The notes under the pieces are model-generated. The model was not told where the DNA came from and did no database searches. It saw nothing but the letters and a program-made list of their open reading frames with translations. The position numbers and the translations under genes are program-made. Below are positions 1,913 through 34,311 of a stretch of DNA of 64,000 nt, in pieces. The stretch covers positions 49,903 through 113,902 of the forward strand of contig CAYGYG010000007.1 of NCBI GenBank assembly GCA_964354155.1, read 5' to 3'. This DNA comes from an uncultured bacterium (GTDB lineage Bacteria; Hydrothermota; Tepidihabitantia; SM23-42; CAYGYG01). Numbering within the stretch: position 1 is the first letter of the stretch; every line of letters begins with the position of its first letter.

Positions 1913-2797
1913 ATGAAAACGATCATTGCCTTATTCCTGCTGATACCGGCGGTGGCACTTGCTGACCAGAGCGGCATGGAGTTCCTCAAGATCGGGGTCG
2001 GGGCAAGACCGATGGCTATGGGCGGTGCCTATGTTGGGTTTGCCGAAGGTGCCGAAGCCGGTTACTGGAACCCGGCCGGCCTGACCCAGATCGAGCACAT
2101 CGAGTTGTCCGCGACGCATCTTCAGTGGTCGACCGACGTGATGTATGAATTCCTGACCTACGGGCAGAAGCTTCCTGGTATCGGTTCGGTCGGCGCCAGT
2201 CTGTTCTATCTTGACGTCGGCGAGATCGACGCCCGGGATGATTTCGGTCAGGTGCTGCCGGTGATTACCGCCTACGACGCCTGCGGTATGGTCTCCTTCG
2301 CGCGGGCGATAAACCCGATGCTGAGTGCGGGCCTGAGTGTGAAGGGATTCCAGGAGAAGATCGGCGACGATGCGACTTCGGGCTTTGCGGTCGACGTCGG
2401 CGGCCTTGTCCGCTTGGCCAAGGTCAGTGTCGGTTTCAACGTCCAGAACCTCGGTATGAAGATGAAGTTCGTGGATGAGGAATTCTCCTTGCCGATGACC
2501 GGGCGGTTGGGCGTGGCCTTTCGTCCGCTGCCAGCATTGGCCCTGGCTCTTGACGGCGACTATCAGATCGTCAACGAGCGAGGCGCGGTGCATTTTGGCG
2601 GCGAGTACTGGATCAAAGAGATGGTGGCGGTCCGGGCCGGCTATCAGTACAAGAACAAAGACGATGAACTGGGGCTTCTGAACGGCCTGGGTGCCGGCTT
2701 GGGCGTTAAGTACATGAAGTTCGGTGTCGACTACGGTTATGAGCCTTCGCCTGAGTTGGGCGATATCCATCGCATCTCTCTGAAAGTCAGTCTGTAG
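1913..2797 (+). CDS. PorV/PorQ-family-like outer-membrane beta-barrel protein (T9SS-associated), putative
   Basis: It has a signal peptide and the N-terminal motif 'FLKIGVGARPMAMGGAYVGFAEGAEAGYWNPAGL', which is typical of the PorV/PorQ family. The rest shows beta-barrel-like alternating hydrophobicity. A GGAGG ribosome-binding site lies 7 nt upstream of the ATG. Confidence 0.5.
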   Translation: MKTIIALFLLIPAVALADQSGMEFLKIGVGARPMAMGGAYVGFAEGAEAGYWNPAGLTQIEHIELSATHLQWSTDVMYEFLTYGQKLPGIGSVGASLFYLDVGEIDARDDFGQVLPVITAYDACGMVSFARAINPMLSAGLSVKGFQEKIGDDATSGFAVDVGGLVRLAKVSVGFNVQNLGMKMKFVDEEFSLPMTGRLGVAFRPLPALALALDGDYQIVNERGAVHFGGEYWIKEMVAVRAGYQYKNKDDELGLLNGLGAGLGVKYMKFGVDYGYEPSPELGDIHRISLKVSL

Positions 2798-2856
2798 AAA
2801 GAATATCGGGCCAGGGCTGTATGGCCCTGGCCCGAATGTTTAAGGAGGCACGAATC

Positions 2857-3891
2857 TTGAGAAAGACCTGGCTGGGTGTTCTGCTTCTGGCATCGGTGGT
2901 CTGGTGCGTGAACCTGGACAGCCTGTATCAATCGGCCCAGCCCGGCGAAGGCTATGATAGGCTGCTCACATTGGATTCGCTCCAGACATATGAAGGTGGA
3001 TTCACGGCTCTAGAAGGGAAGAAGTCCGGTATGAAGGGGTTTGGAGCGATCATAGACTTGAGCCGTGGTGCCGTGCATCAAATCGCTGCCAAAGGTAGTG
3101 GAACGGTTCTTGATATGGCGCGCTGCGTAATCATTAATGGCGCAGACGTTCTGGCGGCCTTGGATTACAGTGATAGCGTCTCGGGGAGGCTTGACCATTT
3201 GACACTGGTCGGGGGCTACAACGGCATACAGTTTTGGCACGGGGAAAGCCTTATTCTCAGAAACAGCATAGTTGTGAATAGTTCGAATTATGGCGTGGTG
3301 ACGCATGATAGTTGTCTCACTTGTTTCTTAATTTCTTACAACGACGTCTGGAGTAATCAAAGAGGTAACTACATGTGCTGGTTTGGCTCTTGTTGAGAGC
3401 CCTATTGGGGAGAGTTCTCCCCATCTCCAGGTACGGGCAATATTAGTACGGATCCGATATTCGTTGACGCAGCCAATGCCAACTATCGGCTTAAAGAAGG
3501 TTCTCCATGTGAAAATCGTGCCGATGACGGTTACAACATGGGGGCGTACCTTGGCGTTTGGAAAGAACCGCCTAAACCCGACACGATTGTGATGAGTCAG
3601 GTCAACCAGAATCGGCCGAATCCTTTCAATAACAACACGCTGATAACGTATCAGATTCTTTCCAGAAGAAGCTCGGCTAACGTTGCCCTCGTAGTCTACA
3701 ACAATCGCGGCCAACGGGTCCGAACTTTGGTCTCGGAAGTGAAGACCAATGGAACGTACTATACGTACTGGAATGGCAAAGACGAAAGTGGCCAACCGGT
3801 AAGCTCGGGTTTCTACTTCTGTTGCCTCCGGGTGGGAAGTGAATACGTGTCATCGATCAAAATGCTGTGGGTAGTGCCGGTAACAAGATAG
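2857..3891 (+). CDS. Right-handed beta-helix (pectate-lyase-fold) secreted protein with T9SS C-terminal domain; single in-frame TGA at 3394-3396 (candidate selenocysteine codon or nonsense mutation)
   Basis: A TTG start at 2857 lies 8 nt after an AAGGAGG ribosome-binding site and is followed by a signal peptide. ORFs 2821-3396 and 3538-3891 share frame 1. Translation across the TGA is continuous (...YMCWFGSC-U-EPYWGEFSPSPGTGNISTDPIFVDAANANYRLKEGSPCENRADDGYN...), a typical beta-helix C-terminus, and there is no start for the downstream part. The C-terminal domain matches the T9SS sorting-domain pattern. Confidence 0.5.
3407..3422 (+). promoter_or_regulatory. SECIS-like hairpin downstream of in-frame TGA (GGGGAG-AGTT-CTCCCC)
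   Basis: It has a perfect 6-bp GC-rich stem and a 4-nt G-containing loop. The loop lies 17-20 nt 3' of the TGA at 3394. Confidence 0.3.
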
Positions 3892-3900
3892 GAATGAGCG

Positions 3901-4923
3901 GTGAAGACGTATTCAATGCCTAGAATCTGGCTCATGGTTTCTGTTTCATGCTGCTTTCTCGGGGCGAGTCAGCGAGCCGGTGCGGGATTCCTCCTGATAT
4001 GGCCCGGCGCGCGATCCACGTCCATGGCCGGGGCTTTTTCAGCGATCGCTGATGATGCCACAGCTTGTTACTATAATCAGGCGGGCCTGGCTTTTATGAA
4101 CGGTATTAACGCTTCCCTGCAACACTGTAACTGGCTGCCGGGGCTGGACAAGGGAATGTATTATGAATATGCCGGCGTCACCAAGTCGTTCACTAAGGGA
4201 ACAGCGGGAATCGATATTATCTATTTAACGACTGGTGAAACCAGCGTAGTGGGCGGTGACGGCACTCCGCAGGGAACATGTAAGGCCTTTGATATGGCCG
4301 CGGGTGTAAACTACGGCTTGAAGTTGAACCCGCGTCTGGGCATCGGTGCTGGTTGGAAGTTCATTTATTCATATCTGGTTGCTCCCTGGGTCTGGACGGC
4401 CATTCCAGATCTGCAGATAAGAGGCGGGGGAGTAGGATTGTCTTTCGCTTTCGACCTGGGGATGCTTTACAAACCCTCTGATTTATTCTCGTTCTCGACG
4501 GCCTTGCAGAACATCGGACCGAATATCAAGTACTGTGAAACCTCTACGGCAGATCCTTTGCCCTATACTCTCCGATTGGGTTTCAAACTCCAGCCCATCG
4601 AAACCAAAGCGATCAAGGGCACCCTTACGGCGGATATTACTAAAGTACTGGCGGGAATGTTTGGCTACCCCGACAAGAGCTCGCGCGAGAAGCTGAACTA
4701 TGAATTCAAAGAGGCCTGGAAGAGTGTTGGCCTTGAACTCAGCTACTTCGGCTTTGCCTTCATACGAGGCGGCTATTTCTCTGACTACGAGGGGTGCAGG
4801 AACGGATTCACATACGGTGCTGGGATCAAAGTCAAGGGATTTTCCCTGGACGTTGGAATAGACCAGGACCTCTATGGATTCAGCACCACCAACCAGAAGT
4901 TTTCCCTGTCCTGCCTACTTTAG
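3901..4923 (+). CDS. PorV/PorQ-family-like outer-membrane beta-barrel protein (second paralog), putative
   Basis: It has a signal peptide and the same N-terminal motif as the 1913-2797 paralog (GARSTSMAGAFSAIADDATACYYNQAGLA). It ends in an aromatic/hydrophobic C-terminal beta-strand (FSLSCLL). Confidence 0.5.
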   Translation: MKTYSMPRIWLMVSVSCCFLGASQRAGAGFLLIWPGARSTSMAGAFSAIADDATACYYNQAGLAFMNGINASLQHCNWLPGLDKGMYYEYAGVTKSFTKGTAGIDIIYLTTGETSVVGGDGTPQGTCKAFDMAAGVNYGLKLNPRLGIGAGWKFIYSYLVAPWVWTAIPDLQIRGGGVGLSFAFDLGMLYKPSDLFSFSTALQNIGPNIKYCETSTADPLPYTLRLGFKLQPIETKAIKGTLTADITKVLAGMFGYPDKSSREKLNYEFKEAWKSVGLELSYFGFAFIRGGYFSDYEGCRNGFTYGAGIKVKGFSLDVGIDQDLYGFSTTNQKFSLSCLL

Positions 4924-8181: not shown

Positions 8182-8341
8182 AGGCGAGCCGAATTATGCT
8201 CGCCAGGACATAAAAATCAAGAGAAATGAGCGCTGACCCCATTATTTCTCTTGACAATTGCCGAATTCCGAGCATCATTATTCTCAGTCTCAGATTCAGA
8301 GTAGCCGTGCGTGAACCGTAACAAACAAGTAAGGAGGTTTT

Positions 8342-9370
8342 ATGAAACGATTGAATGCTTTGGTCATATGTCTCGTGCTCGGACTGGGCCTGCTGAGTGG
8401 AGCTTTTGCTGCCCAGCGAGTGGTTTTGTGTGAAATGCTTTATGGAGAAGGTTGAGGAAGTTGCCCTGCAGCTAGTAGTCTACTAGCAACCCTGGCGATA
8501 AGATATCCGGGTCGGATTGCCCAGACTGAACTGCATTGCGCGTCCGGCTATCCACTTTACCGAGCCGAAGCCTATAATCGGGCGATGTGGTACGGTGCTC
8601 AATACTACAGCGATACCTACATGGACGGCACGTATGCCGGCCATTCGGGCAATTCCGCCAACTGGGAAAACTTGCTGGTCGCTCGTATGAATAGGCCTTC
8701 GCCGATGACGGCGACGATGTGGGGTACGTATAATCCGACCACTCGAAATGGCAGGATCTACTCCAAGTTCCGGAATGATTCGACCGGAACCATAGCGGGG
8801 AATATCTACTTCCTTATCATTCGGGACAGTGTTCGTTATTCATCCCCCAACGGTGACCTTTGGCATAACTACGTCGCGCACGACTACCTGCCAAGTGAAG
8901 TAGGTACTCCGGTAACGGTCCTTCCGGGCGATACCGTAACCCAGTACCGTGATTTTTCGATACCCGATTCATTCAATGTCAGCAAGTGCATGATCTATGC
9001 CTGGGTACAAAGAACCACGGGGACCAGGGAGACCTATCAATCTGGCATCAAGAATGTGACGAGTCTTCTTGAGGTTGCCGAGCAGTCGAGTCGGGTTCCG
9101 GATTTGGCCAAGATCGAGCTTGTCCCGAATCCCTGCAACGGAGAAACCAGCTTCCTGCTTGAGCTACCGGCGGGCGCGCCTTATGCCATTAAGCTCTTCG
9201 ATATGTCAGGAAGACAAATAAGGGTAATGGCAGGTCAAGCAAAAGGCGGCAAGGCAAGAATAACCTGGAATTGCAGAGATGACCGGGGCCGGTCGGTTAA
9301 CCCGGGAGTCTATTTCTATGCCCTGAACAGCAGTAGAATCAACGCTTCGGGTAAGATCATTGTAAGATAG
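8342..9370 (+). CDS. Secreted hypothetical protein with T9SS C-terminal domain; single in-frame TGA at 8453-8455 (candidate selenocysteine, U-G-S-C context)
   Basis: An AAGGAGG ribosome-binding site precedes an ATG at 8342, and a signal peptide (MKRLNALVICLVLGLGLLSGAFAAQ) follows. The TGA and the downstream ORF 8585-9370 are in the same frame. The read-through peptide (GEG-U-GSCPAASSLLATL...) is continuous, and the downstream part has no signal peptide or start of its own. A T9SS C-terminal domain is present (ELVPNPCNGETSFLLELP...GVYFYAL). Confidence 0.5.
8471..8487 (+). promoter_or_regulatory. SECIS-like hairpin downstream of in-frame TGA (GCTAGTA-GTC-TACTAGC)
   Basis: It has a perfect 7-bp stem and a G-containing 3-nt loop. 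The loop lies 23-25 nt 3' of the TGA at 8453. Confidence 0.3.
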
Positions 9371-9381
9371 GCTACAAAGAA

Positions 9382-9414
9382 GCCCAAGGGTTGGAGGAAT
9401 ACCAACCCTTGGGC
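9382..9414 (+). terminator. Stem-loop after T9SS cargo gene (GCCCAAGGGTTGG-loop-CCAACCCTTGGGC)
   Basis: It has a 13-bp perfect stem and a 7-nt loop. There is no strong T-run, so it may be rho-dependent or merely structural. Confidence 0.4.
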
Positions 9415-9583
9415 TGACAACACCATTGGCGTAAAAGAAACACCGGGACTGCCCAGTTCGATTGTTGACACTGCATATAATCCGTATATGCTATCACCGT
9501 GAATGATTCGACGCATTGAATGCTGTAATCCTTCAACGCGCTGTGGTCTGAATTCGCCGTAATTCGCGACATTCGAACCGGAG

Positions 9584-10237
9584 ATGTCTCTCCACGGAGG
9601 CAATTTGGGCTTCGATGATATTAAAAATGCCATTGTTGGATTCGACGATGATCGGATTAGAACCCTCGTGAATTTGGCGCTGAAAGAAGGGATTGCGCCG
9701 GCGGAGCTTTTGGAGAAGGGGTTAATCCCGGGCATGAAGGAAGTCGGAGAGCGGTTTGCTCGAAAAGAGTACTTCGTGCCGGAAGTATTGATGGCGGCTG
9801 AAGCGTTCTATGCGGGGTTCGACCTGGTGAAGCCCTTGATTAAGAGCACTGACCGGAAAGCAAGAGGCAAGATTGTGATCGGGGTTGTTGAGGGTGATAT
9901 CCACGATATCGGAAAGAATATCGTCAAGGTAATGCTAGAGGCTTCTGGGTACGAAGTGGTGGACCTGGGCAAGGACGTTCCGATCGCGAGGTTCATCGAG
10001 ACGGCCGCAAAGGAAAAACCGCAGGTTCTGGCCCTGTCCAGCCTTATGACAACGACAATGGTCAGAATGGGCGATGTGATTCAGGGGCTGCAAAAGAAGG
10101 GGTTACGTAAGGGCATCAAGATCATTGTCGGGGGCGCGCCAGTCAACCAGGATTTTGCCGACAAGATCGGGGCTGATGCTTATGGTGAGGATGCGGCCGC
10201 AGCAATGAAGGTGGTGGACAGCCTTCTGCAACCGTAG
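9584..10237 (+). CDS. Corrinoid (cobalamin-binding) protein of a methyltransferase system (MtmC/MtbC/MtaC-like)
   Basis: It has an N-terminal B12-binding cap followed by a Rossmann B12-binding domain. The DxHxxG motif is present (VEGDIHDIGKN), as is an SxL motif (ALSSLMTT). Confidence 0.8.
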   Translation: MSLHGGNLGFDDIKNAIVGFDDDRIRTLVNLALKEGIAPAELLEKGLIPGMKEVGERFARKEYFVPEVLMAAEAFYAGFDLVKPLIKSTDRKARGKIVIGVVEGDIHDIGKNIVKVMLEASGYEVVDLGKDVPIARFIETAAKEKPQVLALSSLMTTTMVRMGDVIQGLQKKGLRKGIKIIVGGAPVNQDFADKIGADAYGEDAAAAMKVVDSLLQP

Positions 10238-10302
10238 CGAGGGTTGTCGTTGGGGATAAACCCCAACGCTACAGTCTCGTAGCGCCGGGGCTCGTCCCCG
10301 GC
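10234..10302. repeat. REP-like intergenic palindromic element (GTAGCG...[GTTGGGGATAAACCCCAAC]GCTACAG...GTAGCG[CCGGGGCTCGTCCCCGG])
   Basis: Two hairpin modules are bracketed by GTAGCG/CGCTAC arms. The element overlaps the TAG stop codon of the corrinoid-protein gene. A second copy lies at 24119-24177. Confidence 0.6.
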
Positions 10303-10322
10303 AATTATGCATATGTTGATTT

Positions 10323-11246
10323 ATGAATAAAATTGAAGACGTTCTTAATAACAAAAAGGGATTCGCGGTCTTCCCGATTGTTTGTGCCGATCACTGTGCT
10401 CATTTGTCTAAAATGGATTTTGTTGAGATGGCGCACAGTGGCGAGAAGCTGGCGGAAGTCATAGAATATGGCTATCGCCTCTATCAGTACGACATGGTTT
10501 TGGTCTTTGTCGATGCCTATGTTGAGGCGCAGGCGATGGGCTGTGAGATAGAGTTTGTTCCGTATCCGAGACTTAAATCAGATACACACGGATTGAAGCG
10601 GATGCAAACGGATACGAACCGAACCGGTGAGATTATAAAGGCGGCAAAGATCCTTAAGAAGAAAGTTGATGTTCCAGTATTTGTTTCGATCAAGGGGCCC
10701 TTCACGCTTGCTGCCTTCCTAGCGGGCCTCGATGAATTTTTGAAGATGCTTATTCGAGATCCGGAGAAGGCCCAGGCGATCATCAAACAGGCGCTCGATT
10801 TCCAACTCGCGTACCTGGAGCGACTGCTTGAAGTCGATGCCGACATCTTCATCGGCGACCCGATCGCTTCGGCCAGCGTTATTTCTCCGAGGAGTTTTGA
10901 ACGGTTCGCGTTACCGGCGCTGAAAACCTTAATGGGGAAAATCAAAGACCAAGGACATGTGGGCGGCATTCACATCTGCGGCGAGACCGGACCGATCGCG
11001 ACGGCGCTTGATGAATGCCGCGTCGACATTCTCTCGATCGAAGACATAACGGTGCCGACCAAAACCTTGAAGATGGGCGGCGTGTCAACATCAACCATAC
11101 TTGGCGGCGACCGGTCGGCGATCGAGAGTGAAGTCGAGGCCGCGTTACGCGAGCCATATCTTATTGTCTCAACTTCATGCGATGTCCCGGTTGAGACGCC
11201 GGTGGAAAACATCAAGGCAATGATTGAATATGCCAGAAACTCGTAG
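10323..11246 (+). CDS. Uroporphyrinogen-decarboxylase (URO-D) family corrinoid methyltransferase (MtaA/CmuA-like)
   Basis: It has a URO-D-like TIM-barrel sequence with conserved blocks (DAYVEAQAMGCEIEF; IGDPIASASVISP; HICGETG). Confidence 0.75.
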   Translation: MNKIEDVLNNKKGFAVFPIVCADHCAHLSKMDFVEMAHSGEKLAEVIEYGYRLYQYDMVLVFVDAYVEAQAMGCEIEFVPYPRLKSDTHGLKRMQTDTNRTGEIIKAAKILKKKVDVPVFVSIKGPFTLAAFLAGLDEFLKMLIRDPEKAQAIIKQALDFQLAYLERLLEVDADIFIGDPIASASVISPRSFERFALPALKTLMGKIKDQGHVGGIHICGETGPIATALDECRVDILSIEDITVPTKTLKMGGVSTSTILGGDRSAIESEVEAALREPYLIVSTSCDVPVETPVENIKAMIEYARNS

Positions 11247-11318
11247 CCGTTCTATTCGTCGAGCCAGGTGCTGGCCTGGACATCCCGGTATTTTCATGAG
11301 TCGTAATGTGATGATTCT

Positions 11319-12686
11319 ATGATCTTGCTCGACCTGCTAATCAAGCGACGCAGCCTGATCCCGGCCGGATGCAGCGGCCGGGGTCGGTGCGGGCAGTGCC
11401 GGATAAAAATGGTTAAACCCCGGAAACCGGATGAGATTGAGCGCCAGCTCATCCCGTCCGCGGTTCTTGACCAGGGCTATCGTCTTGCCTGCAGAAGAGA
11501 AGCCCACGAGAAATTCGTGCCCCGAGTGCGGACCACGCCCCGGATCCGAACCAGCAAGAGCAAAGAAATCGGACTGGCCCTTGATCTGGGCACGACAACG
11601 ATCAAAGGGCTGGCGGTTGATCTTAGGAGCGGCCGGACCATTGGGAAGGAAGCGGTCTTCAATCCTCAGAACGTCTTGGGGGCTGATGTCATCTCCCGAA
11701 TCGGCGCCGCGCTTGAAGGGAAATACACCTATCTCAGAAAACTGCTGATGTCGGGAGTCGAGGAAGTCATCCGGCGGTTGGGGATCAAGCAGCCGGTCTT
11801 TACTGCGGTCGCGGCCAACCCGGTGATGCGGTCCTTCTATCTCAATGATGCAGTCCAGGGACTCGCCCAGTACCCCTTTGAGAGTGTCCGTCGCGAAGCC
11901 GTCTGGCTTAAGAACCCCACCCGGTACGTCTTCCCGGTTATCGGCGGATTCGTCGGCGGGGACACAATTGCGGGGTTGCTTGCCGACCGTACACTGGAGA
12001 CGCGCTGTACCGTTCTCTACGCCGATCTGGGCACGAACGGTGAAGTTGGGCTGGCCTGGGGCGGCAAGATCGTTCTGGTTTCAACCGCCGCCGGTCCGGC
12101 ATTCGAGGGGTCGGGCATCAAGGGCGGCAGTCTGGCGCTACCGGGGGCAATCGACCGCGTTGGCTATCAGGGTGGTTTCAGGATTCGGACGATCGGGAAC
12201 AGAAAACCGGTTGGCTTCTGCGCCTCGGGACTGCTTGACTTGCTGGCTGTTCTGCGGCGCCGTGGGTGGCTGACTCCGGACGGTCGGCTGATGAAGCCGG
12301 TGGAGATCGGCGGCATCGCGATTGAGCAACAAGCGATTCGGCAGCTCCAACTGGCCATCGGCGCCATCCACGTCGGCATCATGGTGCTGCTTCTCAAATA
12401 CTCGATAGCCCCGGCCGAAGTCAGCCGGGTTATCCTGACCGGTGAATTCGGCGCCCATCTCAATCCCCGATCCCTGGTCGAGGTGGGCCTGATACCAACA
12501 GGCATCAAGAAAATCTCTATGGCCAGCGACCTACCGCTGCAAGGCGCCCTGAAATTCTTGCTTGACGCCAACGGCCTGGACGCGGTGAAATTGGTTCATC
12601 GGAACGCCCATCATCTGGAACTGGCACAGGAACCGGCCTTCGAACGGCTTTTTATTAAATCGCTCAGGTTGGCGCCATGGGATTGA
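11319..12686 (+). CDS. RACo-type reductive activator of corrinoid enzymes (N-terminal [2Fe-2S] ferredoxin + ASKHA ATPase, DUF4445)
   Basis: A plant-type ferredoxin cysteine pattern (CSGRGRCGQC...AC) is followed by ASKHA phosphate-binding motifs (LALDLGTTTIKG; ADLGTNGEV). Confidence 0.75.
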   Translation: MILLDLLIKRRSLIPAGCSGRGRCGQCRIKMVKPRKPDEIERQLIPSAVLDQGYRLACRREAHEKFVPRVRTTPRIRTSKSKEIGLALDLGTTTIKGLAVDLRSGRTIGKEAVFNPQNVLGADVISRIGAALEGKYTYLRKLLMSGVEEVIRRLGIKQPVFTAVAANPVMRSFYLNDAVQGLAQYPFESVRREAVWLKNPTRYVFPVIGGFVGGDTIAGLLADRTLETRCTVLYADLGTNGEVGLAWGGKIVLVSTAAGPAFEGSGIKGGSLALPGAIDRVGYQGGFRIRTIGNRKPVGFCASGLLDLLAVLRRRGWLTPDGRLMKPVEIGGIAIEQQAIRQLQLAIGAIHVGIMVLLLKYSIAPAEVSRVILTGEFGAHLNPRSLVEVGLIPTGIKKISMASDLPLQGALKFLLDANGLDAVKLVHRNAHHLELAQEPAFERLFIKSLRLAPWD

Positions 12687-13921
12687 TCCCGTTAGAAATC
12701 GGCGACTCTATGTTGGGTCACTCATCATCTGATGCTGATGCGAGAGACCGGGGCAGATTTCTAACGGGGCTGACCCCATTAGAGACTAAGCATACAGAGC
12801 GTTGTGCGCCTGATGGTAAGGGCTGTCCTGAAAAGGGCGGCAAGTCTCTAACGAGACTGACCCCATTAGAGACTAACGAGTCGGAAGGTTGTCCCCGTGA
12901 GGCGGGTGCCTGTCCTGCTAACCCCAGCAAGTCTCTAACGGGGCTTATCGGCTACACGTGTTCGTACACGCCGGTCGAAATACTGTCGGCAACCGGCTTC
13001 AGGCCCTATCGGTTGCTGCACGGAGATAGCGGGCGGTCAAGCGCGGGCGAACTGTATGTGCGGATTGACTCCTGTCCGTTGGTTAGATCGAACATCCGGT
13101 ATCTTGTCGAAAACAAGGATGACTTTGTGGCAATTGTCGGTTCCAGCGGATGCGATATGGCGCGGCGGATGCTCGAAGTCGTCGCGTACGAGACGAAGAT
13201 GCCGACCTTTCTGTTCAATAATCCGAGGACCGATAACCGGCGGATGTTCAACGACGAGATTGACTGGCTGGTTCAGGAACTGGAACGTTTTTCAGGCCGG
13301 GACTTGTCGGACCAGGCGTTGGCGCGAGAAATCGACCGCTGGGAAAGCGCCCGCTCGGTTTTTCGAGGACTTGACGCAAAGCGCCGTAGTCGCCCTTCGA
13401 TGATTTCAACAACGCGGCTGCACCAGGCGGCGATGAGCTATCATCAGGGTGCACCGAATGCGGCGCGGGAAGTCCCGGAAGAGGCTTCGGATCGACCCAG
13501 GATCTACCTGATCGGCAGCCCGATATCCTATGAATCGACCCCGATATTGTCGCGGATCGAGGAACAACTGCGCATTGTCGGTGATTTCAACTGCGGCATC
13601 TCGCGGTTTGCGGACCTGAAGGTTGAAGAGAAGAGCCGGCGCGGTATCAAGCAGGCCTATTATGGCCAGACGGCGTGCATCGTCAAACGGCCGAACACTG
13701 CGTTCTACGACCGAATCTACCGAGAGATCAAGGATCGCGAGTGCGTCGGTGTTGTTGCCTGGACATTAGACTTCTGCGATGCGTTTGAATTCGAGCTCAA
13801 TCGAATGGAACGCAAGATCGGGTTACCGATGTTGCGACTGAAGAGCGATTTCTCGGTCCAGAACCTAGGCCAGTTGAAAACCAGGATCGGGGCCTTTACC
13901 GAGATGCTGGATCACGAATAG
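12677..13921 (+). CDS. 2-hydroxyacyl-CoA dehydratase / benzoyl-CoA reductase BcrB-like subunit (HgdB-like); start uncertain
   Basis: The conserved core starts near 12940 (LIGYTCSYTPVEILSATGF...SCPLVRS...SSGCD) with the cysteine ligands of the HGD-D family. The first ~85 codons of the ORF are a tandem hairpin repeat and may not be coding. Confidence 0.65.
   Translation: MGLIPLEIGDSMLGHSSSDADARDRGRFLTGLTPLETKHTERCAPDGKGCPEKGGKSLTRLTPLETNESEGCPREAGACPANPSKSLTGLIGYTCSYTPVEILSATGFRPYRLLHGDSGRSSAGELYVRIDSCPLVRSNIRYLVENKDDFVAIVGSSGCDMARRMLEVVAYETKMPTFLFNNPRTDNRRMFNDEIDWLVQELERFSGRDLSDQALAREIDRWESARSVFRGLDAKRRSRPSMISTTRLHQAAMSYHQGAPNAAREVPEEASDRPRIYLIGSPISYESTPILSRIEEQLRIVGDFNCGISRFADLKVEEKSRRGIKQAYYGQTACIVKRPNTAFYDRIYREIKDRECVGVVAWTLDFCDAFEFELNRMERKIGLPMLRLKSDFSVQNLGQLKTRIGAFTEMLDHE
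12688..12945. repeat. Tandem structured repeat (about 87-bp period, about 2.2 copies), each unit a nested hairpin (GTCTCTAA-CGRGRCTGACCCCA-TTAGAGAC), preceded by an inverted arm CCCGTTAGAAATC
   Basis: Direct repeat units lie at 12756-12787, 12844-12877 and 12931-12945. The arm at 12688-12700 is the reverse complement of the GATTTCTAACGGG at the start of the first unit. Confidence 0.6.
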
Positions 13922-13951
13922 CGCGAATGGCAGCGAATAGCAGGATGATCC

Positions 13952-15283
13952 ATGTTTGACGATCCCAGACCCAGAAAGATTACGCTCCATGAATGGAGCG
14001 AGCAGTTTCGGCAGCTCGACGAGAGCATCATCAGGCAATTCACCTATTACGGCAATCCGCAATGGGGCAACTACCTTTCACCGCCGGCAACATTCATGGT
14101 TTATGGGGCGAAGGAGCTGAAGCGACTGCGACTGGATAACTCGCTGGCTGCGCTTCGCCTCTGGGGCTTCGTTTTCAACGAATCCGAGAGATTGTTTCGG
14201 GCTCGCCAGGTCGGCAAGAAGGTTATCGCGACGATGGGCGATTTGGGCATCGTGCCGGCCATCGTCATGGCCTTCCCGGATTGTGTGCCTTTCTATCCGG
14301 AGTGTATCTGGTGGACGCCCTTTTTTAGGGAATCCAAAGACCTGCTCCATACCGCGACCATGCTGGGCACCCCTGAAGCCAGCTGTTTTGTCCGTGCCGC
14401 CCTTGCGGCATTCTACAAGAAGGCCTATTTCCCCAATCCGGACTTGCTGATCGGCTCAACCGGCGCTTCGTGCGATGACTATTCCGGCGTGATGCAGCTG
14501 GTCGAAGATCTGGGCCATGAGGTGCTGTGGGTCGAAATACCGATGAGGAAAGGCGCTCGAGCCGAAGAATATCTGCTAGCTGAGTACGAGCGAATCTTAG
14601 GGAGAATGAAACAGTTGACCGGGGTTGCGTCGGATCGTGGATTGATCGAGAGCATCCAGAAAGCCAACCGATTGAGAGGGACGGTCAAGAAGTTGAAACA
14701 GCTCTGCTACAACGCCCCGATTGCGCCTCTGCCTGCGCTGGAATTGATGACGATTGAGTTTGGGAATATGTACGGCTACGGCGATTTCGATGAATGGACA
14801 AGAATCGTGGAAGCGGTGTACGAGACGGTCGAACAGCGGGTCGCCCTGAAACGCGGCGTGCTTAATGCGGACGCGGTGCCGATTGCCTGGGTGAGCCCAT
14901 CGCCGGATCCGTACGTGCTCAATCTGGTTGAAGACCTCGGCGGCCGGGTTGTCGCGACCGAATACGTGATCAACCAGGCTCTCGTCGAGATCGACGAGAG
15001 TATCGAGCCGGTGCGGGCGCTGGCCCGGGCTTTTCTGCAGGCTTCGCTCATTGGCTCGACCGAGGAGAGGGTTGGCAGAATCCGAAAGCAGATTGAGGCC
15101 GGCACGGTGCGCGGGGTTCTGATCACCAACTCAATGGGTGCGTCCCACTGTGCGATGGAGACGCGGCTGATCGAGAAGATGCTGGGTAAGGTTCCGGTGC
15201 TTTCGATCGACATCCCGGAGCCGTTCGGCATCTCCGGGCAGGTTCGAACCCGGCTTGAGGCCTTTATGGAAATGATTGGATAA
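13952..15283 (+). CDS. 2-hydroxyacyl-CoA dehydratase / BcrC-like subunit (HgdA-like)
   Basis: It shows HGD-D family conservation (FPDCVPFYPECIWW; GASCDDYSG) and directly follows its partner subunit. Confidence 0.65.
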   Translation: MFDDPRPRKITLHEWSEQFRQLDESIIRQFTYYGNPQWGNYLSPPATFMVYGAKELKRLRLDNSLAALRLWGFVFNESERLFRARQVGKKVIATMGDLGIVPAIVMAFPDCVPFYPECIWWTPFFRESKDLLHTATMLGTPEASCFVRAALAAFYKKAYFPNPDLLIGSTGASCDDYSGVMQLVEDLGHEVLWVEIPMRKGARAEEYLLAEYERILGRMKQLTGVASDRGLIESIQKANRLRGTVKKLKQLCYNAPIAPLPALELMTIEFGNMYGYGDFDEWTRIVEAVYETVEQRVALKRGVLNADAVPIAWVSPSPDPYVLNLVEDLGGRVVATEYVINQALVEIDESIEPVRALARAFLQASLIGSTEERVGRIRKQIEAGTVRGVLITNSMGASHCAMETRLIEKMLGKVPVLSIDIPEPFGISGQVRTRLEAFMEMIG

Positions 15284-15474
15284 GCGAATGACTCAAATGA
15301 CAGCGAATGACTCGAACAGCGAACCTACGACACGTTTTGTCATTGCGAGTCCCTGTGGGACGTGGCAATCTCATTCTCATGCAGAATCGTGTACTGTAAC
15401 GGTTGGATTCATCCGATGTGATGCAGCATCATTCGCCAAGGTCGCTGGAATCCGTCATATTCGCGAGTGATGGC

Positions 15475-16500
15475 ATGAAGGATATTTTAACTCCCCGAGA
15501 ACGATTCGGTCTGCTCATCATTGACGAGAAGCCGGATCGATGCAATGTCATCCCGCTGATCACGTCACATGCGGCCATTGTCGCCGGAGTATCGGTTAAG
15601 AAGTACTACACGCAGGGCGAAGTAATGGCCCGGGCGCAGCTTGCGGCCATCGAAGAGTACGGCCATGATGCGATTTCGATCTTCTCGGAGGTCGGCATCC
15701 TGGCCGAGGCCATGGGCTCGAAGTTCGAATACCCGGAAGATGACCTGCCGATCTTCAGGGAGCCGGCCTTAGGCAAAGCCGGGCCTGAAACGCTGTCAAC
15801 ACCCAATCCGACCCAAACCGGGCGCTTGCCCGTCTATCTTGAAGCGATCCGCTGTGCTTACGATGCAGTCGGGGATACTATCCCGGTGCTTGCTTACGTG
15901 CCGGCGCCGTTCACGACCGGAATGATGCTCTGTCAGCCGGAGCAGTTCCTGATTGACCTGGCGCGGAATCCGGCACGGGTTGATGCCATTATGCAAAAAG
16001 CATTGGATGCTGCGATCGAGTTCTGCTACGAAATAATCAATGCTGGAGGCCTGCCGGTCCTGGTCGATCCACTGGCCTCAGGGAGTGTCATCAGCCCGGC
16101 AACCTATCGGAAATTCGCTCTGCCGTACGAAGCCGAACTGATAAAATTTCTTCACCGGTACGATCTCGACATTATTCTCCATATCTGCGGTGATACGAGG
16201 CCGATCGTTGATATATTGCCCGAGACCGGGGCCGACCTGATGAGCTTCGATCATCTGGGAATCGACGTGGCCCTGGAGCGGTTGTCAGGCCGGATGCGTT
16301 TGATAGGTAATTTCGACACGTCCCGTCTGGTCCTGTCTTCAGCTGATGTAATCGGCCGGGAAGTGGGCGCAATGGTCGCGGGCGCGAAGGAGGCTGGGAG
16401 AGGTTACGTCGCATCCACTGGCTGCGAGGTGCCTTTATGCGCGCCGCGCGACAATGTTTTGGCCTTTGTCAAAGCCGCCAAAGAAGCCGGAGCCTATTGA
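15475..16500 (+). CDS. URO-D family corrinoid methyltransferase (second MtaA/CmuA-like paralog)
   Basis: It contains URO-D-like blocks (LTPRERF; VDPLASGSVISP; HICGDT). The ATG at 15475 (MKDILTPRERF) fits the family N-terminus better than the upstream ATG at 15403. Confidence 0.7.
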   Translation: MKDILTPRERFGLLIIDEKPDRCNVIPLITSHAAIVAGVSVKKYYTQGEVMARAQLAAIEEYGHDAISIFSEVGILAEAMGSKFEYPEDDLPIFREPALGKAGPETLSTPNPTQTGRLPVYLEAIRCAYDAVGDTIPVLAYVPAPFTTGMMLCQPEQFLIDLARNPARVDAIMQKALDAAIEFCYEIINAGGLPVLVDPLASGSVISPATYRKFALPYEAELIKFLHRYDLDIILHICGDTRPIVDILPETGADLMSFDHLGIDVALERLSGRMRLIGNFDTSRLVLSSADVIGREVGAMVAGAKEAGRGYVASTGCEVPLCAPRDNVLAFVKAAKEAGAY

Positions 16501-20262: not shown

Positions 20263-21372
20263 CTACTCGAAGAGCTTCAAGTATTCGGCGTAGCCTTCCT
20301 TCACCAGATCCTCCTTAGGGATGAAGCGGAGCGAGGCGGAATTGATGCAGTAGCGCAAACCGGTCGGGGCAGGCCCGTCATCAAAGACATGGCCGAGGTG
20401 GGAATCAGCGTGCTTGCTTCGTACTTCGGTCCGGACCATCCCTTGGTTCGTATCTGGCTTTTCGACGACCACCGCGGCGTCGATAGGCTTGGTGAAGCTG
20501 GGCCAGCCGCATCCGGAGTCGAACTTGTCTTTCGAGCTGAAGAGCGGTTTGCCAGAGACGATATCGACGTAGATCCCGTCGCGCTTGTTGTTCCAGTATT
20601 CGTTGCCGAAAGGTCGTTCGGTTTGGTTTTCCTGGGTTACCGTGTACTGAAGTGGGGTCAGTCGTTTCTTCAACTCCTCGGCCGAGGGTTTGATATGCGG
20701 GTTATTATTCATCGATAACTCCTTTTTTTCTTCACGGCCCCAGGTCTTCTTGATGTAGGCGTCACGGCCCGACAGGAGTCGATAGCTCTTGTAGCGCACC
20801 GGGCACTTCTTGTAGTAGTCCTGATGATATTCCTCGGCGGGGAAAAACTCGGTCAACTTGAGAATCTGGGTCGCGATCTCTTTCTTGAACCGACCGCTCT
20901 CTTCAAGGGACTTCTTCGACGCCTCGGCCAGCCTCTTCTGGTCGTCGCTCGTGTAGAAGATCGCGGTCTGATATTGGCTCCCGCGGTCCGCAAATTGGCC
21001 GCCGGCATCGGTGGGATCGATCTCGTGCCAGAACACATCGAGCAGTCTCTCATAGCTTGTTCGTTTTGGATCGTACGTGATCTGAACCGCTTCAGTGTGG
21101 CCGGTTGTCCCGGAACAGACCTCTTCGTAGGTGGGATTCCTGACCGTACCCCCGGTGTAGCCCGCGGTCACCTCAATAACCCCTTCAATCTTTTCAAAAG
21201 GCGCCTCAAGGCACCAGAAACAGCCGCCGGCAAATACGGCCTTGGCCAGCTTGGCGTCCGGGCCAGTAGCCGCCTTTGCTTTCTTGGACGACGGACTGCT
21301 TTGAGAGAAGCTCAACAGTACCGGCATGAAAACTACAAATAAAGTCAGCGTTTTCATTATTGTGTTCTCCAT
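20263..21372 (-). CDS. msrAB: Bifunctional peptide-methionine sulfoxide reductase MsrA/MsrB with signal peptide
   Basis: It has the MsrA motif GGCFWC and the MsrB motifs CGWPSF and RYCINS. A signal peptide is present at the N-terminus. Confidence 0.9.
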
Positions 21373-32253: not shown

Positions 32254-33936
32254 TCAGTGACTGACGACCATTTTTCTTGTTGCCACGCCCTGCTCAGTCT
32301 CAAGGCGGTAGAAATAGACGCCCGAAACGACCGGCTTGCCTGACGCATCTGTGCCATCCCAGTAAGCTGAGTGTCGGCCCGCCGCAAGTCTGCTCTCAAG
32401 AACCGTTGTCACCAGCTTGCCGGACAGGTCGAATACCCTGAGTGACGCGCGCGATGGCACTTCAAGCTGGAACGCAATCCTGGTTCCGGCCACAAGCGGG
32501 TTGGGCGTGTTCTGAGCCAGCACGAACCGGCTCTGCTCCCAGCGGCTGCCGCTTACCTGCTCTTCAATCCCGACGGCAGGCAGAGGCCGGCGCCCGGCCG
32601 CGATGTAGCTCCAGGTTGTCCGGCCATTGCGGTGGTCGGACCACTCGCAGTAGACATAGTTCGAGTCGGTGTCGATCTGCTGGTAATCGCCCTGCTGTGA
32701 GGAACTCGCCGCTGTATATGAAGGCGTGACATCGTTCACTCGTTCATTTGGACGCCAGGTTACGCCGCCGTCGGTCGAGTATGAATAGTAGGTGTCGCCA
32801 GAGTTGGTTGGATAGTAATTGCGGGAATCAAGCCAGAAGACGTGGGGCCGGTTGTAACGGTCAATGCTGATCCATGAGCAGTACTGGTCAGAATCAGTAT
32901 TGGTATCATCGTTAGCCCTTACCGGTGCGCCCCAGGTCGTGCCGCCATCGGTTGACGATATTACGCAGATGTCCCAGCCGGCGCCGCGCATACTGTTCTG
33001 AACCGTAACGTAGATCTTGCCGGTCGCATCGCAGGCCATGGATGGAAAACTATGATTGGCCCGCCAGCCGCTGAGATGGCTCGACGATGTCAGAGAGAGA
33101 ATCCGGGTCGCGGTACCCCAGGAAGCGCCGTTGTCCGTAGAGCGGTTGAACCAAATTTCGGTCGGGACCCACTGGCACGGCTGTCCCCAGACTGCATAGA
33201 CGTGGCCGTTGGTCGGATTGACCGCCGGGCACGAGCCTTGGCCGCCGGCGCTTGATATATTCTGGTCGCCGGTATTCCAGGTTCGACCCCAGTCCGAAGA
33301 GCGGCACATACGGATCCAGTTGGTGCCGCCCGTGAAGTCGCTGTAGGAGCAATAGAGATAGCGTCCCCAGGTCTTAAACATCGGTTTGTCCGTGAAAGTA
33401 CTGGTCCCGCGATCAACGCGAACCGTATCACTCCAGGTCAGCCCGTAATCGGACGAGAATCGGATGAAGAGATGATAACCTCCGCCCGATGGCTGGTTAA
33501 TGCCCAAATTGTAGCAGGAATCACGGCCATTGCCGTTGATGCAAACGTCGACCCAGAACCAGCCTTGATGGTCGTAGTAGGCGGTGTAGGTTTGACCAGA
33601 GTTCGTGCTGCGAGCCCAACGACATTGCCAGGCCGAGCCAGTGTTGTAGTTGTAGCCAAGAACGATGTATCCCGGTTGGGTGCCACCCTTGCGTACGACG
33701 AACAACGCTCCATCCGGAGGGTTGGAGTAATCCATGCTGTCCGCTAGTGCGTTGGCCAGCCACGGCGGGTCGGGATTGAGGAATCGCTGGGGAGGGTCGG
33801 TCGGTACCGAAACCGGGCCAGTTGGACTGTAATCGGGAATCGTCGGCATCGCTTGCTGGGCAAAAGCCCCGCCGACCCCACCGAAATAACCACCAAACAG
33901 TAGGCCTACAGAGAGCAGACACGCAAGCTTTCTCAT
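32254..33936 (-). CDS. BNR/Asp-box (sialidase-like) secreted protein with T9SS C-terminal domain
   Basis: The likely start is the internal ATG at 33936, which gives the signal peptide MRKLACLLSVGLLFGG and has an AAAAGGAG ribosome-binding site. Asp-box motifs are present (SDYGLTW, SDWGRTW, STDNGASW, STDGGTTW, STDGGVTW). The C-terminal domain matches the T9SS pattern (GVYFYRLETEQGVATRKMVVSH). Confidence 0.7.
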   Translation of the reverse strand: MRKLACLLSVGLLFGGYFGGVGGAFAQQAMPTIPDYSPTGPVSVPTDPPQRFLNPDPPWLANALADSMDYSNPPDGALFVVRKGGTQPGYIVLGYNYNTGSAWQCRWARSTNSGQTYTAYYDHQGWFWVDVCINGNGRDSCYNLGINQPSGGGYHLFIRFSSDYGLTWSDTVRVDRGTSTFTDKPMFKTWGRYLYCSYSDFTGGTNWIRMCRSSDWGRTWNTGDQNISSAGGQGSCPAVNPTNGHVYAVWGQPCQWVPTEIWFNRSTDNGASWGTATRILSLTSSSHLSGWRANHSFPSMACDATGKIYVTVQNSMRGAGWDICVISSTDGGTTWGAPVRANDDTNTDSDQYCSWISIDRYNRPHVFWLDSRNYYPTNSGDTYYSYSTDGGVTWRPNERVNDVTPSYTAASSSQQGDYQQIDTDSNYVYCEWSDHRNGRTTWSYIAAGRRPLPAVGIEEQVSGSRWEQSRFVLAQNTPNPLVAGTRIAFQLEVPSRASLRVFDLSGKLVTTVLESRLAAGRHSAYWDGTDASGKPVVSGVYFYRLETEQGVATRKMVVSH

Positions 33937-34187
33937 ATTACGCTCCTTTTGTTTGTCCTCAACTATGCAGATTCTCTCATCTTGTAAAGATGTTTGGACA
34001 AGATGCGTGACAGTTGGTTTAGTCAATAAGGGCGGTCTACGCGAGGCTTTGCTCAAGTCATCATATTCAATGAGTTTGGCCCAGGCGGAGAAATGATCGC
34101 CAATCGACAGATCGTACACCTGCTGTCTGCACCCGCACGATTTTGGCACCTTCATCGATCGTACATGGAATTCTTCTATTTGCCTAT

Positions 34188-34215
34188 TGACATGCGACGG
34201 CCGACGGTTATACTG
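34188..34215 (+). promoter_or_regulatory. Sigma70-like promoter (TTGACA-16-TATACT) followed by inverted repeat TTCGC-GAATT-GCGAA (34237-34251)
   Basis: It has consensus -35 and -10 elements. The palindrome lies about 20-35 nt downstream of the predicted transcription start, which is a candidate operator position. Confidence 0.45.
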
Positions 34216-34311
34216 GCGAGTTAACATTAGTTGGATTCGCGAATTGCGAAACAGGTGGCGGGCCCATAATGAGGCATGCGGCATCATGTGAAAACAACAA
34301 GGAGGTCTAAT

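What the first reader, a model, noticed from the sequence alone, without database searches (positions are those of the whole stretch)
8342..9370. Secreted T9SS cargo whose signal peptide and mature part are separated by an in-frame TGA in a U-G-S-C context
The AAGGAGG ribosome-binding site, ATG and signal peptide (8342-8452) are followed by a TGA (8453-8455). The frame then continues as GSCPAASSLLATLAIRYPGR... into the 8585-9370 ORF, which has the T9SS domain but no signal peptide. A T9SS substrate must first cross the inner membrane via Sec, so the downstream ORF alone would be non-functional. U-x-x-C is a classic selenoprotein redox motif. A perfect 7-bp hairpin (GCTAGTA-GTC-TACTAGC) lies 23-25 nt downstream.
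Basis: partly seen in the sequence, partly recalled or inferred. Interest (0 to 1): 0.7.

Follow-up and report, generated by a model that had tools for sequence, protein, structure and literature searches.

The report
Secreted thioredoxin-fold selenoprotein, mis-annotated as truncated
The in-frame TGA is almost certainly a selenocysteine codon in one 342-residue exported protein with a thioredoxin-like U-G-S-C active site; this kind of selenoprotein is already known, but public annotation cuts this group of relatives in two.

Summary
Window 8342-9370 is one gene: ribosome-binding site, signal peptide, TGA at 8453-8455, then a thioredoxin-like domain, a beta-sandwich domain and a type IX secretion (T9SS) tail.

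- **TGA conservation:** all 54 distinct relatives aligned across the junction, mostly WOR-3/Stahlbacteria genomes, keep TGA at this codon. The same frame reads as coding on both sides.
- **Active-site match:** more distant full-length homologues have C-x-x-C here, and their first Cys aligns with the TGA.
- **SECIS-like hairpin:** a 6-8 bp hairpin follows with its loop 22 nt after the UGA. It shows compensatory changes at synonymous sites and an invariant loop G.
- **Decoding machinery:** three relatives have a tRNA-Sec gene beside the gene, and one of them also has selB there.
- **Genetic code:** TGA is an ordinary stop elsewhere in the window, so the code is not reassigned.

The closest curated family is the Omp28-related selenoprotein (NCBIfam NF045500, "GOS_C" of 2008), which this protein matches only weakly. 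The closest structure is P. gingivalis HBP35. Verdict: a real selenoprotein, a new member of a known kind, of moderate interest. A second conserved in-frame TGA gene, encoding a BNR/sortilin-repeat T9SS protein, lies at 34276-36534.

The parts
8251..8278 (+). Promoter-like site, TTGACA-16 nt-CATCAT (weak evidence)
   Evidence: A consensus scan matched 10 of 12 positions. This is a pattern match only and was not tested further.
8331..8337 (+). Shine-Dalgarno sequence AAGGAGG, 4 nt before the ATG
   Evidence: Read directly from the sequence. A strong Shine-Dalgarno sequence (AAGGAGG, or AAGGGGG in L005) precedes the signal-peptide ATG in all six genes checked.
8342..9370 (+). Complete selenoprotein coding sequence: 342 residues, Sec at codon 38, stop TAG 9368-9370
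   Evidence: Established by the read-through translation, the conserved arrangement in relatives and the coding pattern on both sides of the TGA.
8342..8410 (+). Sec-type signal peptide MKRLNALVICLVLGLGLLSGAFA, with likely cleavage at AFA|AQ
   Evidence: Judged by inspecting the sequence. Equivalent N-termini are present in the relatives examined. No predictor was run.
8411..8701 (+). Thioredoxin-like domain (about residues 24-120) carrying the U-G-S-C centre; the boundary is approximate
8453..8455 (+). UGA read as selenocysteine (residue 38)
   Evidence: TGA is present in all 54 distinct relatives aligned, with no Cys codon at this position. It aligns with the first Cys of C-x-x-C in distant homologues.
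8453..8464 (+). Redox motif U-G-S-C
   Evidence: Across 54 sequences the consensus is U-[GSPA]-[STG]-C, with the Cys invariant.
8471..8487 (+). SECIS-like hairpin: stem 8471-8477 with 8481-8487, loop GUC at 8478-8480, 22 nt after the UGA
   Evidence: RNAalifold predicts this hairpin independently on 54 sequences. Pair 24-30, in alignment columns counted from the T of TGA, is UA in 25 sequences and CG in 24; pair 25-29 is GC in 29 and AU in 12. None of 500 shuffles reached the covariation score and slid controls are much lower. The first loop base G (column 26) is invariant although its codon encodes Gly, Ser, Cys or Trp.
8702..9067 (+). Beta-sandwich domain of Omp28 type (about residues 121-242)
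9125..9367 (+). T9SS type A C-terminal sorting domain (residues 262-342)
9381..9415 (.). 14-bp G+C-rich hairpin just after the stop codon; probable terminator
   Evidence: Found by the terminator scan. The T-run is on the minus strand only, so function on the plus strand is inferred.

Best explanation
Window 8342-9370 encodes one 342-residue selenoprotein.

**How the UGA is decoded.** Translation starts at ATG 8342. At codon 38 the UGA is read as selenocysteine by SelB carrying Sec-tRNA(Sec), recruited by the hairpin at 8471-8487. That hairpin lies inside the coding sequence, with its G-containing loop 22 nt after the UGA.

**How the protein is exported.** The signal peptide sends the chain through SecYEG to the periplasm. 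The C-terminal sorting domain then hands it to the type IX secretion system for delivery to the cell surface.

**What the mature protein is.** It has a thioredoxin-like domain whose active site is U-G-S-C, with Sec in the place of the nucleophilic first Cys of C-x-x-C, followed by an Omp28-type beta-sandwich. It most likely works as a surface or periplasmic thiol/selenol-disulfide oxidoreductase that cycles through a selenenylsulfide, by analogy with the Cys-type thioredoxin-motif T9SS cargo HBP35.

**Shown here:** single conserved reading frame, invariant TGA, Sec/Cys correspondence, conserved covarying hairpin, Sec machinery in related genomes, fold and T9SS tail.

**Inferred:** actual Sec insertion, cleavage site, surface location, substrate and reductant.
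For: 1. **Conserved TGA.** All 54 distinct relatives aligned across the junction carry TGA at the homologous codon and none carries a Cys codon, at about 35-72% protein identity. One of the two search patterns contained Cys at that position, so the search itself was not biased towards TGA.
2. **Coding on both sides.** Both flanks show the coding pattern of variation in one frame, with no indels. A strong Shine-Dalgarno sequence precedes the signal-peptide ATG in all six genes checked.
3. **Sec/Cys pair.** An exhaustive phmmer search found 262 homologues. In the 17 full-length ones aligned, 15 have C-x-x-C with the first Cys aligned to U.
5. **Hairpin.** It is predicted independently by RNAalifold, shows compensatory changes between third-codon positions and has an invariant loop G. 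None of 500 shuffles reached the observed score.
6. **Sec machinery nearby in relatives.** tRNA-Sec scores 70-77 bits against Rfam RF01852 and lies within about 60-160 nt of the gene in L004, L040 and L050. In L050 a selB fragment (TIGR00475, 189 bits versus 115 for EF-Tu) precedes the tRNA.
7. **Standard code.** 15 of 47 large ORFs in the window end in TGA.
8. **Curated family.** The best NCBIfam match is NF045500, Omp28-related selenoprotein, at E = 1.5e-8. This is the UxxC thioredoxin-fold family GOS_C of Zhang & Gladyshev 2008 (PMC2398784; PMC13188914).
9. **T9SS context.** Two PorV-like genes and several other proteins with a T9SS tail lie in the same window.
Against: - No selA, selB, selD or tRNA-Sec is visible in this 64-kb window. 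Sec use by this particular organism is therefore inferred from relatives and from a second conserved TGA gene in the window.
- The hairpin is short, with a 3-nt loop, and its folding energy is not exceptional (z = 0.17).
- A lower stem is not supported by covariation.
- Rfam gave no match in the window, so no curated RNA family supports the hairpin.
- The NF045500 score of 34 bits is far below its 200-bit cut-off.
- The structure model lacks the first 38 residues because the tool refuses sequences containing a stop. Its thioredoxin part has pLDDT of only about 70.
- There is no biochemical evidence for Sec insertion, secretion or redox activity, and no reductant for a surface-exposed redox centre was identified.
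Confidence: 0.88

Rival explanations
1. There are two separate genes, as in the public annotation: a 37-residue ORF that ends at TGA, and an independent 261-residue protein that starts at ATG 8585.
For: Gene callers made this split in every record. P0001 is the 261-residue product, and separate 35-37-residue ORFs were called upstream in L001, L004 and L007.
Against: - No start codon is conserved after the TGA. Relatives are called from different Met, Val or Leu codons, and the common 'MH' start is CTG in the window.
- ATG 8585 has no Shine-Dalgarno sequence.
- The 43 codons between the TGA and 8585 are in frame. The 27 immediately after the TGA, measured across 54 relatives, show the coding pattern of variation.
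- A start at 8585 would remove the active site, helix 1 and strand 2 of the thioredoxin fold.
- The downstream product would have a T9SS tail but no signal peptide.
Confidence: 0.03
2. The gene is a pseudogene, or the TGA is an assembly or sequencing error (a nonsense mutation in an Omp28-like gene).
For: On its face a single in-frame stop in a single sequence looks like this.
Against: TGA is present at the identical codon in 54 distinct sequences from dozens of independent metagenome-assembled genomes and in tandem paralogues. Purifying selection acts on both sides.
Confidence: 0.01
3. The UGA is read through or reassigned to a standard amino acid (Trp, Gly or Cys) rather than to selenocysteine.
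For: - UGA is reassigned in some uncultured lineages.
- The flanking residues are Gly-rich (G-U-G).
- Sec machinery was not seen in the window itself.
Against: - TGA ends 15 of 47 large ORFs in the window, and only two genes carry a conserved internal TGA.
- The position corresponds to the catalytic Cys in homologues.
- A conserved hairpin with an invariant loop G lies at the canonical SECIS distance.
- tRNA-Sec and selB lie beside the gene in relatives.
Confidence: 0.06
4. The protein is a selenoprotein, but the U-x-x-C site binds a metal, haem or a chalcogen (for example Hg, As or polysulfide scavenging, or hemin capture as in HBP35) rather than acting as an oxidoreductase.
For: - A surface location has no obvious reductant.
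- The two nearest relatives without Sec keep only the second Cys (P0094, P0073).
Against: Sec at the N-terminal position of a thioredoxin-fold C-x-x-C is the classical oxidoreductase arrangement, and HBP35 itself shows thioredoxin activity (PMC2907840). No metal- or haem-binding motif was identified here.
Confidence: 0.2

Closest known systems
Omp28-related selenoprotein: NCBIfam NF045500, equal to 'Hypothetical protein GOS_C' of Zhang & Gladyshev 2008 (PMC2398784; listed with NF045500 in PMC13188914)
   Same: It has a thioredoxin-like fold with a UxxC motif, is related to Omp28, has many Cys homologues and has a SECIS-like hairpin after the UGA. It is the best NCBIfam match of the window protein (E = 1.5e-8, residues 22-242).
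   Different: The score is 34 bits against a cut-off of 200, so the window protein is not a member of that equivalog. Its close relatives form a separate group in WOR-3/Stahlbacteria rather than in marine GOS reads. Whether GOS_C proteins carry a T9SS tail was not checked.
HBP35 of Porphyromonas gingivalis (PDB 5y1a; PMC2907840, PMC3120885)
   Different: HBP35 has Cys, not Sec, and only 12% identity in the structural alignment. It was not detected by the profile sequence search (E <= 1). Its hemin-binding role was not tested for the window protein.
Cys-type Omp28 family (Pfam PF11551; NCBIfam NF033782; PDB 2r2c) and DUF1223 (PF06764; PDB 2axo)
   Different: They have Cys instead of Sec. Omp28 proper is a lipoprotein, whereas the window protein has a type I signal peptide and a T9SS tail. 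PF11551 itself did not match the window protein at E <= 1.
UGSC-containing selenoprotein family (NF041046; Zhang & Gladyshev 2008)
   Same: It has the identical four-residue motif U-G-S-C and a presumed thioredoxin-like fold.
   Different: NF041046 gave no match at E <= 1. Only the motif is shared, and in relatives of the window protein the middle residues vary (U-[GSPA]-[STG]-C).
Bacterial SECIS elements (E. coli fdhF type; bSECISearch model of Zhang & Gladyshev 2005, cited from my own knowledge)
   Same: It is a hairpin inside the coding region immediately after the UGA. The apical loop lies within the 16-37 nt range, and a G in the first loop positions is conserved.
   Different: The conserved part is only a 6-8 bp stem with a 3-5 nt loop. 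No conserved lower stem or bulged U was found. SelB binding is untested.

Membership tests
Bacterial selenoprotein (UGA decoded as Sec) | An in-frame UGA conserved among orthologues, with coding sequence on both sides | tested here: met
   TGA is present in 54 of 54 distinct sequences, and the coding pattern of variation holds before and after it.
Bacterial selenoprotein (UGA decoded as Sec) | Homologues with Cys at the position of the UGA | tested here: met
   15 full-length homologues have C-x-x-C with the first Cys aligned to U.
Bacterial selenoprotein (UGA decoded as Sec) | A SECIS hairpin just downstream of the UGA with a conserved loop G | tested here: met
   The loop lies 22 nt after the UGA, the structure covaries (0 of 500 shuffles reach the score) and loop G26 is invariant. 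SelB binding itself cannot be tested with these tools.
Bacterial selenoprotein (UGA decoded as Sec) | selA, selB, selD and tRNA-Sec present in the same genome | tested here: inconclusive
   None of these is in the 64-kb window. tRNA-Sec lies beside the gene in L004, L040 and L050, and selB in L050, so the trait is present among the relatives. The rest of this organism's genome could not be read.
Bacterial selenoprotein (UGA decoded as Sec) | Selenium actually incorporated into the protein | not testable with these tools
   This needs 75Se labelling or mass spectrometry.
NCBIfam NF045500 Omp28-related selenoprotein (GOS_C) | Whole-protein score at or above the curated cut-off of 200 bits | tested here: not met
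   The score is 34.4 bits (E = 1.5e-8), matching residues 22-242 to profile positions 35-271 of 377. The window protein is related to this family but is not a member of the equivalog.
Thioredoxin-fold C/UxxC oxidoreductases | Thioredoxin-like fold with the motif at the start of helix 1 after strand 1 | tested here: inconclusive
T9SS type A cargo | C-terminal sorting domain above the curated threshold, together with an N-terminal signal peptide | tested here: met
UGSC-containing selenoprotein (NF041046) | A match to the family model | tested here: not met
   NF041046 is not among the NCBIfam matches at E <= 1.
Omp28 lipoprotein (NF033782) | Score at or above 150 bits and a lipoprotein signal peptide | tested here: not met
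   The score is 28.4 bits. The signal peptide ends AFA|AQ and has no lipobox Cys.

The most novel reading that the evidence does not exclude
WOR-3-type bacteria may export a dedicated set of selenoproteins to the cell surface through the T9SS. The set would be this thioredoxin-fold U-x-x-C protein together with the BNR/sortilin-repeat protein that also carries a conserved in-frame UGA. The two genes are often adjacent, and in some genomes they sit beside tRNA-Sec and selB. On this reading they form an extracellular selenium-dependent redox system with no described counterpart. The BNR-type member would be a new selenoprotein family.
Probability: 0.25. Interest if true: 0.65.

Novelty: new member of a known kind. 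Interest (0 to 1): 0.42.

Why it matters
- **Annotation.** Every close relative found in the public protein collections is stored as an N-terminally truncated protein lacking both its signal peptide and its active site. The few that carry a name are called 'Omp28-related outer membrane protein'. Automated selenoprotein calling therefore misses this group, and WOR-3/Stahlbacteria selenoproteomes are under-counted.
- **Biology.** This would be a selenoprotein routed through Sec and then the T9SS to the cell surface. A full-text search of about 8 million papers found no paper discussing selenoproteins as T9SS cargo. It also raises the question of what re-reduces a selenenylsulfide outside the cytoplasm.
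- **Use as a marker.** Every close relative examined has TGA and none has a Cys codon, and the gene lies next to tRNA-Sec and selB in some genomes. This makes it a convenient marker gene for the Sec trait in these uncultured lineages.

Tried and rejected
- **Genetic-code reassignment.** Rejected, because 15 of 47 large ORFs in the window end in TGA.
- **Longer SECIS with a lower stem.** RNAfold of the window alone suggested a lower stem of columns 8-13 with 42-47; its core, columns 10-15 with 40-45, was tested. Only 56% of cells are paired, no better than shuffles. An earlier attempt used the wrong register.
- **Folding energy of the single sequence.** Not informative (z = 0.17).
- **Rfam.** No match in the window at gathering thresholds.
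- **UGSC-containing family NF041046.** No match.
- **Sequence search of the PDB.** Only weak thioredoxin matches, and HBP35 was not detected by sequence.
The part after the TGA was used instead.
- **Hairpin control in relatives without TGA.** The Cys homologue L059 and the Val variant L057 do not form the hairpin in register. The Gln variant L058 keeps a shifted CCAGC-CAAAC-GCUGG hairpin with no G in the loop, possibly a relic. With only three sequences this is suggestive, not conclusive.
- **Literature.** No paper pairs Omp28 with selenoprotein. The single paper containing both 'type IX secretion' and 'selenoprotein' is an unrelated study of rabbit nutrition.
- **Other TGA-joined ORF pairs in the window.** Apart from the BNR/sortilin gene, they read as non-coding frames.

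Full report
**1. What is in the sequence.**
- AAGGAGG lies at 8331-8337, then four bases, then ATG at 8342.
- The first 23 residues, MKRLNALVICLVLGLGLLSGAFA followed by AQR, look like a type I signal peptide. This was judged by inspection only.
- Codon 38 is TGA (8453-8455).
- The same frame runs on without another stop through GSCPAASSLLATLAIRYPGR into the annotated ORF 8585-9370 and ends at TAG 9368-9370. The read-through product has 342 residues.
- The hairpin GCTAGTA-GTC-TACTAGC lies at 8471-8487, with its loop 22 nt after the UGA.
- The folding energy of this stretch alone is unremarkable (z = 0.17). The single sequence therefore cannot decide the question.

**2. Relatives all show the same split.**
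- Word-indexed searches found about 35 protein clusters at 30-72% identity. Every one is annotated as starting just after the position of the TGA.
- On their contigs, each gene is preceded in frame by a Shine-Dalgarno sequence, a signal peptide and the motif RVV(L/V)(C/A)EE.YQE.-TGA-x-x-C.
- A scan of one genome per species returned 49 loci, nearly all WOR-3 or Stahlbacteria metagenome-assembled genomes.
- Across all loci, every intact copy has TGA at that codon and none has TGC or TGT. 54 of them are distinct sequences. L049 is truncated.
- One of the two search patterns actually contained Cys at that position, so the result is not an artefact of the search.
- Across the 54 distinct sequences there are no indels from 12 codons before the TGA to 27 codons after it.
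- Both sides vary mostly at third codon positions: 0.26/0.16/0.59 before and 0.33/0.24/0.56 after.
- The Met codon from which most relatives are called is CTG in the window, so there is no conserved internal start.

**3. TGA is not reassigned.** 15 of 47 large ORFs in the window end in TGA.

**4. The UGA sits where a catalytic Cys sits.**
- An exhaustive phmmer search with residues 39-242 found 262 homologues.
- 17 of the full-length ones were aligned with the window protein. 15 have C-x-x-C (CPSC, CGYC, CTYC, CPPC and others) with the first Cys aligned to the UGA.
- The two nearest relatives without Sec have Val or Gln there and keep only the second Cys.
- A profile of the N-terminal domains hits only thioredoxins in the PDB. 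The hits are weak (E = 0.14) but aligned at the active site, with U opposite Cys32 of WCGPC.
- An AlphaFold2 model of residues 39-342 has mean pLDDT 80, with about 70 in the thioredoxin part.
- HBP35 is a T9SS cargo with a thioredoxin motif and measured thioredoxin activity (PMC2907840, PMC3120885).

**5. The hairpin is a conserved RNA element.** Columns below are numbered from the T of TGA in the alignment of the 60 nt that start at the TGA.
- The 54 sequences align without gaps, and RNAalifold predicts a stem of columns 20-25 with 29-34 and a loop at 26-28.
- Pair 24-30 joins two third-codon positions. It is U-A in 25 sequences, C-G in 24, U-G in 2 and unpaired in 3.
- Pair 25-29 is G-C in 29 sequences and A-U in 12.
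- Overall, 84% of cells are paired, against 18-38% when the partner is slid. None of 500 shuffles reaches the observed covariation score.
- Loop base G26 is invariant although its codon encodes Gly, Ser, Cys or Trp.
- This fits the bacterial SECIS pattern as I know it: the loop lies 16-37 nt after the UGA with a G early in the loop.
- A lower stem suggested by RNAfold for the window alone is not supported.

**6. Selenocysteine machinery.**
- The window has no tRNA gene and no Rfam match.
- Among the fetched loci, a tRNA-Sec gene lies within roughly 60-160 nt of the gene in L004, L040 and L050. ARAGORN finds it, and Rfam RF01852 scores 70-77 bits.
- In L050 the upstream ORF is a selB fragment (TIGR00475 189 bits versus 115 for EF-Tu).
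- With flanks of only 2-3 kb, chance would give about 0.1 such adjacencies. That figure is my own estimate.
- The relatives therefore decode Sec. For the window's own organism this is inferred.

**7. Comparison with what is known.**
- The best curated match is NCBIfam NF045500, 'Omp28-related selenoprotein', at E = 1.5e-8. The score is only 34 bits against a cut-off of 200.
- A 2026 review equates NF045500 with 'Hypothetical protein GOS_C'. That is a thioredoxin-fold UxxC family found in ocean metagenomes in 2008, with 74 Sec forms and 312 Cys homologues (PMC13188914, PMC2398784).
- The 'UGSC-containing' family (NF041046) does not match.
- The window protein therefore belongs to a divergent Sec-containing branch of the Omp28/HBP35-like superfamily. 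This kind is already described, but this branch is not captured by the curated model and is mis-annotated throughout.
- No paper pairs Omp28 with selenoproteins, and none discusses T9SS cargo selenoproteins.

**8. Mechanism.**
- Shown: one reading frame, conserved UGA, Sec/Cys pair, covarying hairpin, fold, T9SS tail (TIGR04183 31.5 bits against a cut-off of 23) and PorV-like genes nearby.
- Inferred: SelB-dependent Sec insertion at codon 38, SecYEG export, cleavage after AFA, T9SS transport, and a selenenylsulfide redox cycle at U38/C41.
- The substrate and the reductant are unknown. A binding role for hemin, a metal or a chalcogen remains possible.

**9. Verdict.** This is a genuine selenoprotein gene, ordinary in kind. 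It is notable for being secreted and for having TGA, never Cys, in every close relative examined. It also has a neighbour: a second, apparently undescribed, gene with a conserved in-frame TGA, encoding a BNR/sortilin-repeat T9SS protein.

Noticed in passing
window 34276-36534 (+), TGA at 35545-35547; also L001 5244, L005 1730, L016 1320, L018 1305, L024 1317: There is a second conserved in-frame TGA, in a BNR/sortilin-repeat protein with a T9SS tail. The context is CGNICEF...LEG(A/S/T)G-TGA-GNAELY(K/R)STDGG. The 45 nt after the TGA are almost identical across six loci and contain two hairpins, GCUCU-ACA-AGAGC and GACGG-CGGGN-CCGUC. The gene is often directly adjacent to the Omp28-like selenoprotein gene. 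NCBIfam gives no selenoprotein family for it; the best match is NF045728 at 175 bits. It is a candidate new selenoprotein family.
   Followed up: partly
L050 8-1762 (selB fragment), 1770-1859 (tRNA-Sec, minus strand), about 1977-3026 (selenoprotein gene); L004 3446-3535; L040 3201-3290: tRNA-Sec lies immediately beside the Omp28-like selenoprotein gene in three WOR-3 loci, and in one of them selB lies next to it. The arrangements differ in orientation.
   Followed up: yes
L004 1159-2211 and 2329-3381; L020 758 and 2112; L047 2052 and 3133: Some genomes carry tandem paralogues of the selenoprotein gene, each with its own TGA and hairpin.
   Followed up: partly
L058 1501-2529 (P0073) and L057 386-1147 (P0094): The nearest full-length relatives have Gln or Val instead of Sec or Cys and keep only the second Cys. 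L058 still has a CCAGC-CAAAC-GCUGG hairpin at the corresponding place but with no G in the loop, possibly a relic of a Sec ancestor.
   Followed up: partly
window 1913-2797 and 3901-4923 (+); 17-1900, 32254-34287 (-), 44289-46049: The window holds two PorV-like outer-membrane proteins (PF19572, 28-30 bits) and several further proteins with a T9SS tail, so it is rich in T9SS-related genes.
   Followed up: partly
window 9584-16500 (+): Downstream lies a cluster encoding a corrinoid-binding protein, URO-D-like methyltransferases, a RACo-type activase and two HGD-D family proteins (Pfam marks on the identical contig L007). This looks like a corrinoid-dependent methyltransferase system and appears unrelated to the selenoprotein gene.
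   Followed up: no
window 20263-21372 (-): This gene encodes an MsrA-MsrB fusion (PF01625 plus PF01641) with no internal TGA, so it is a Cys-type methionine sulfoxide reductase.
   Followed up: no
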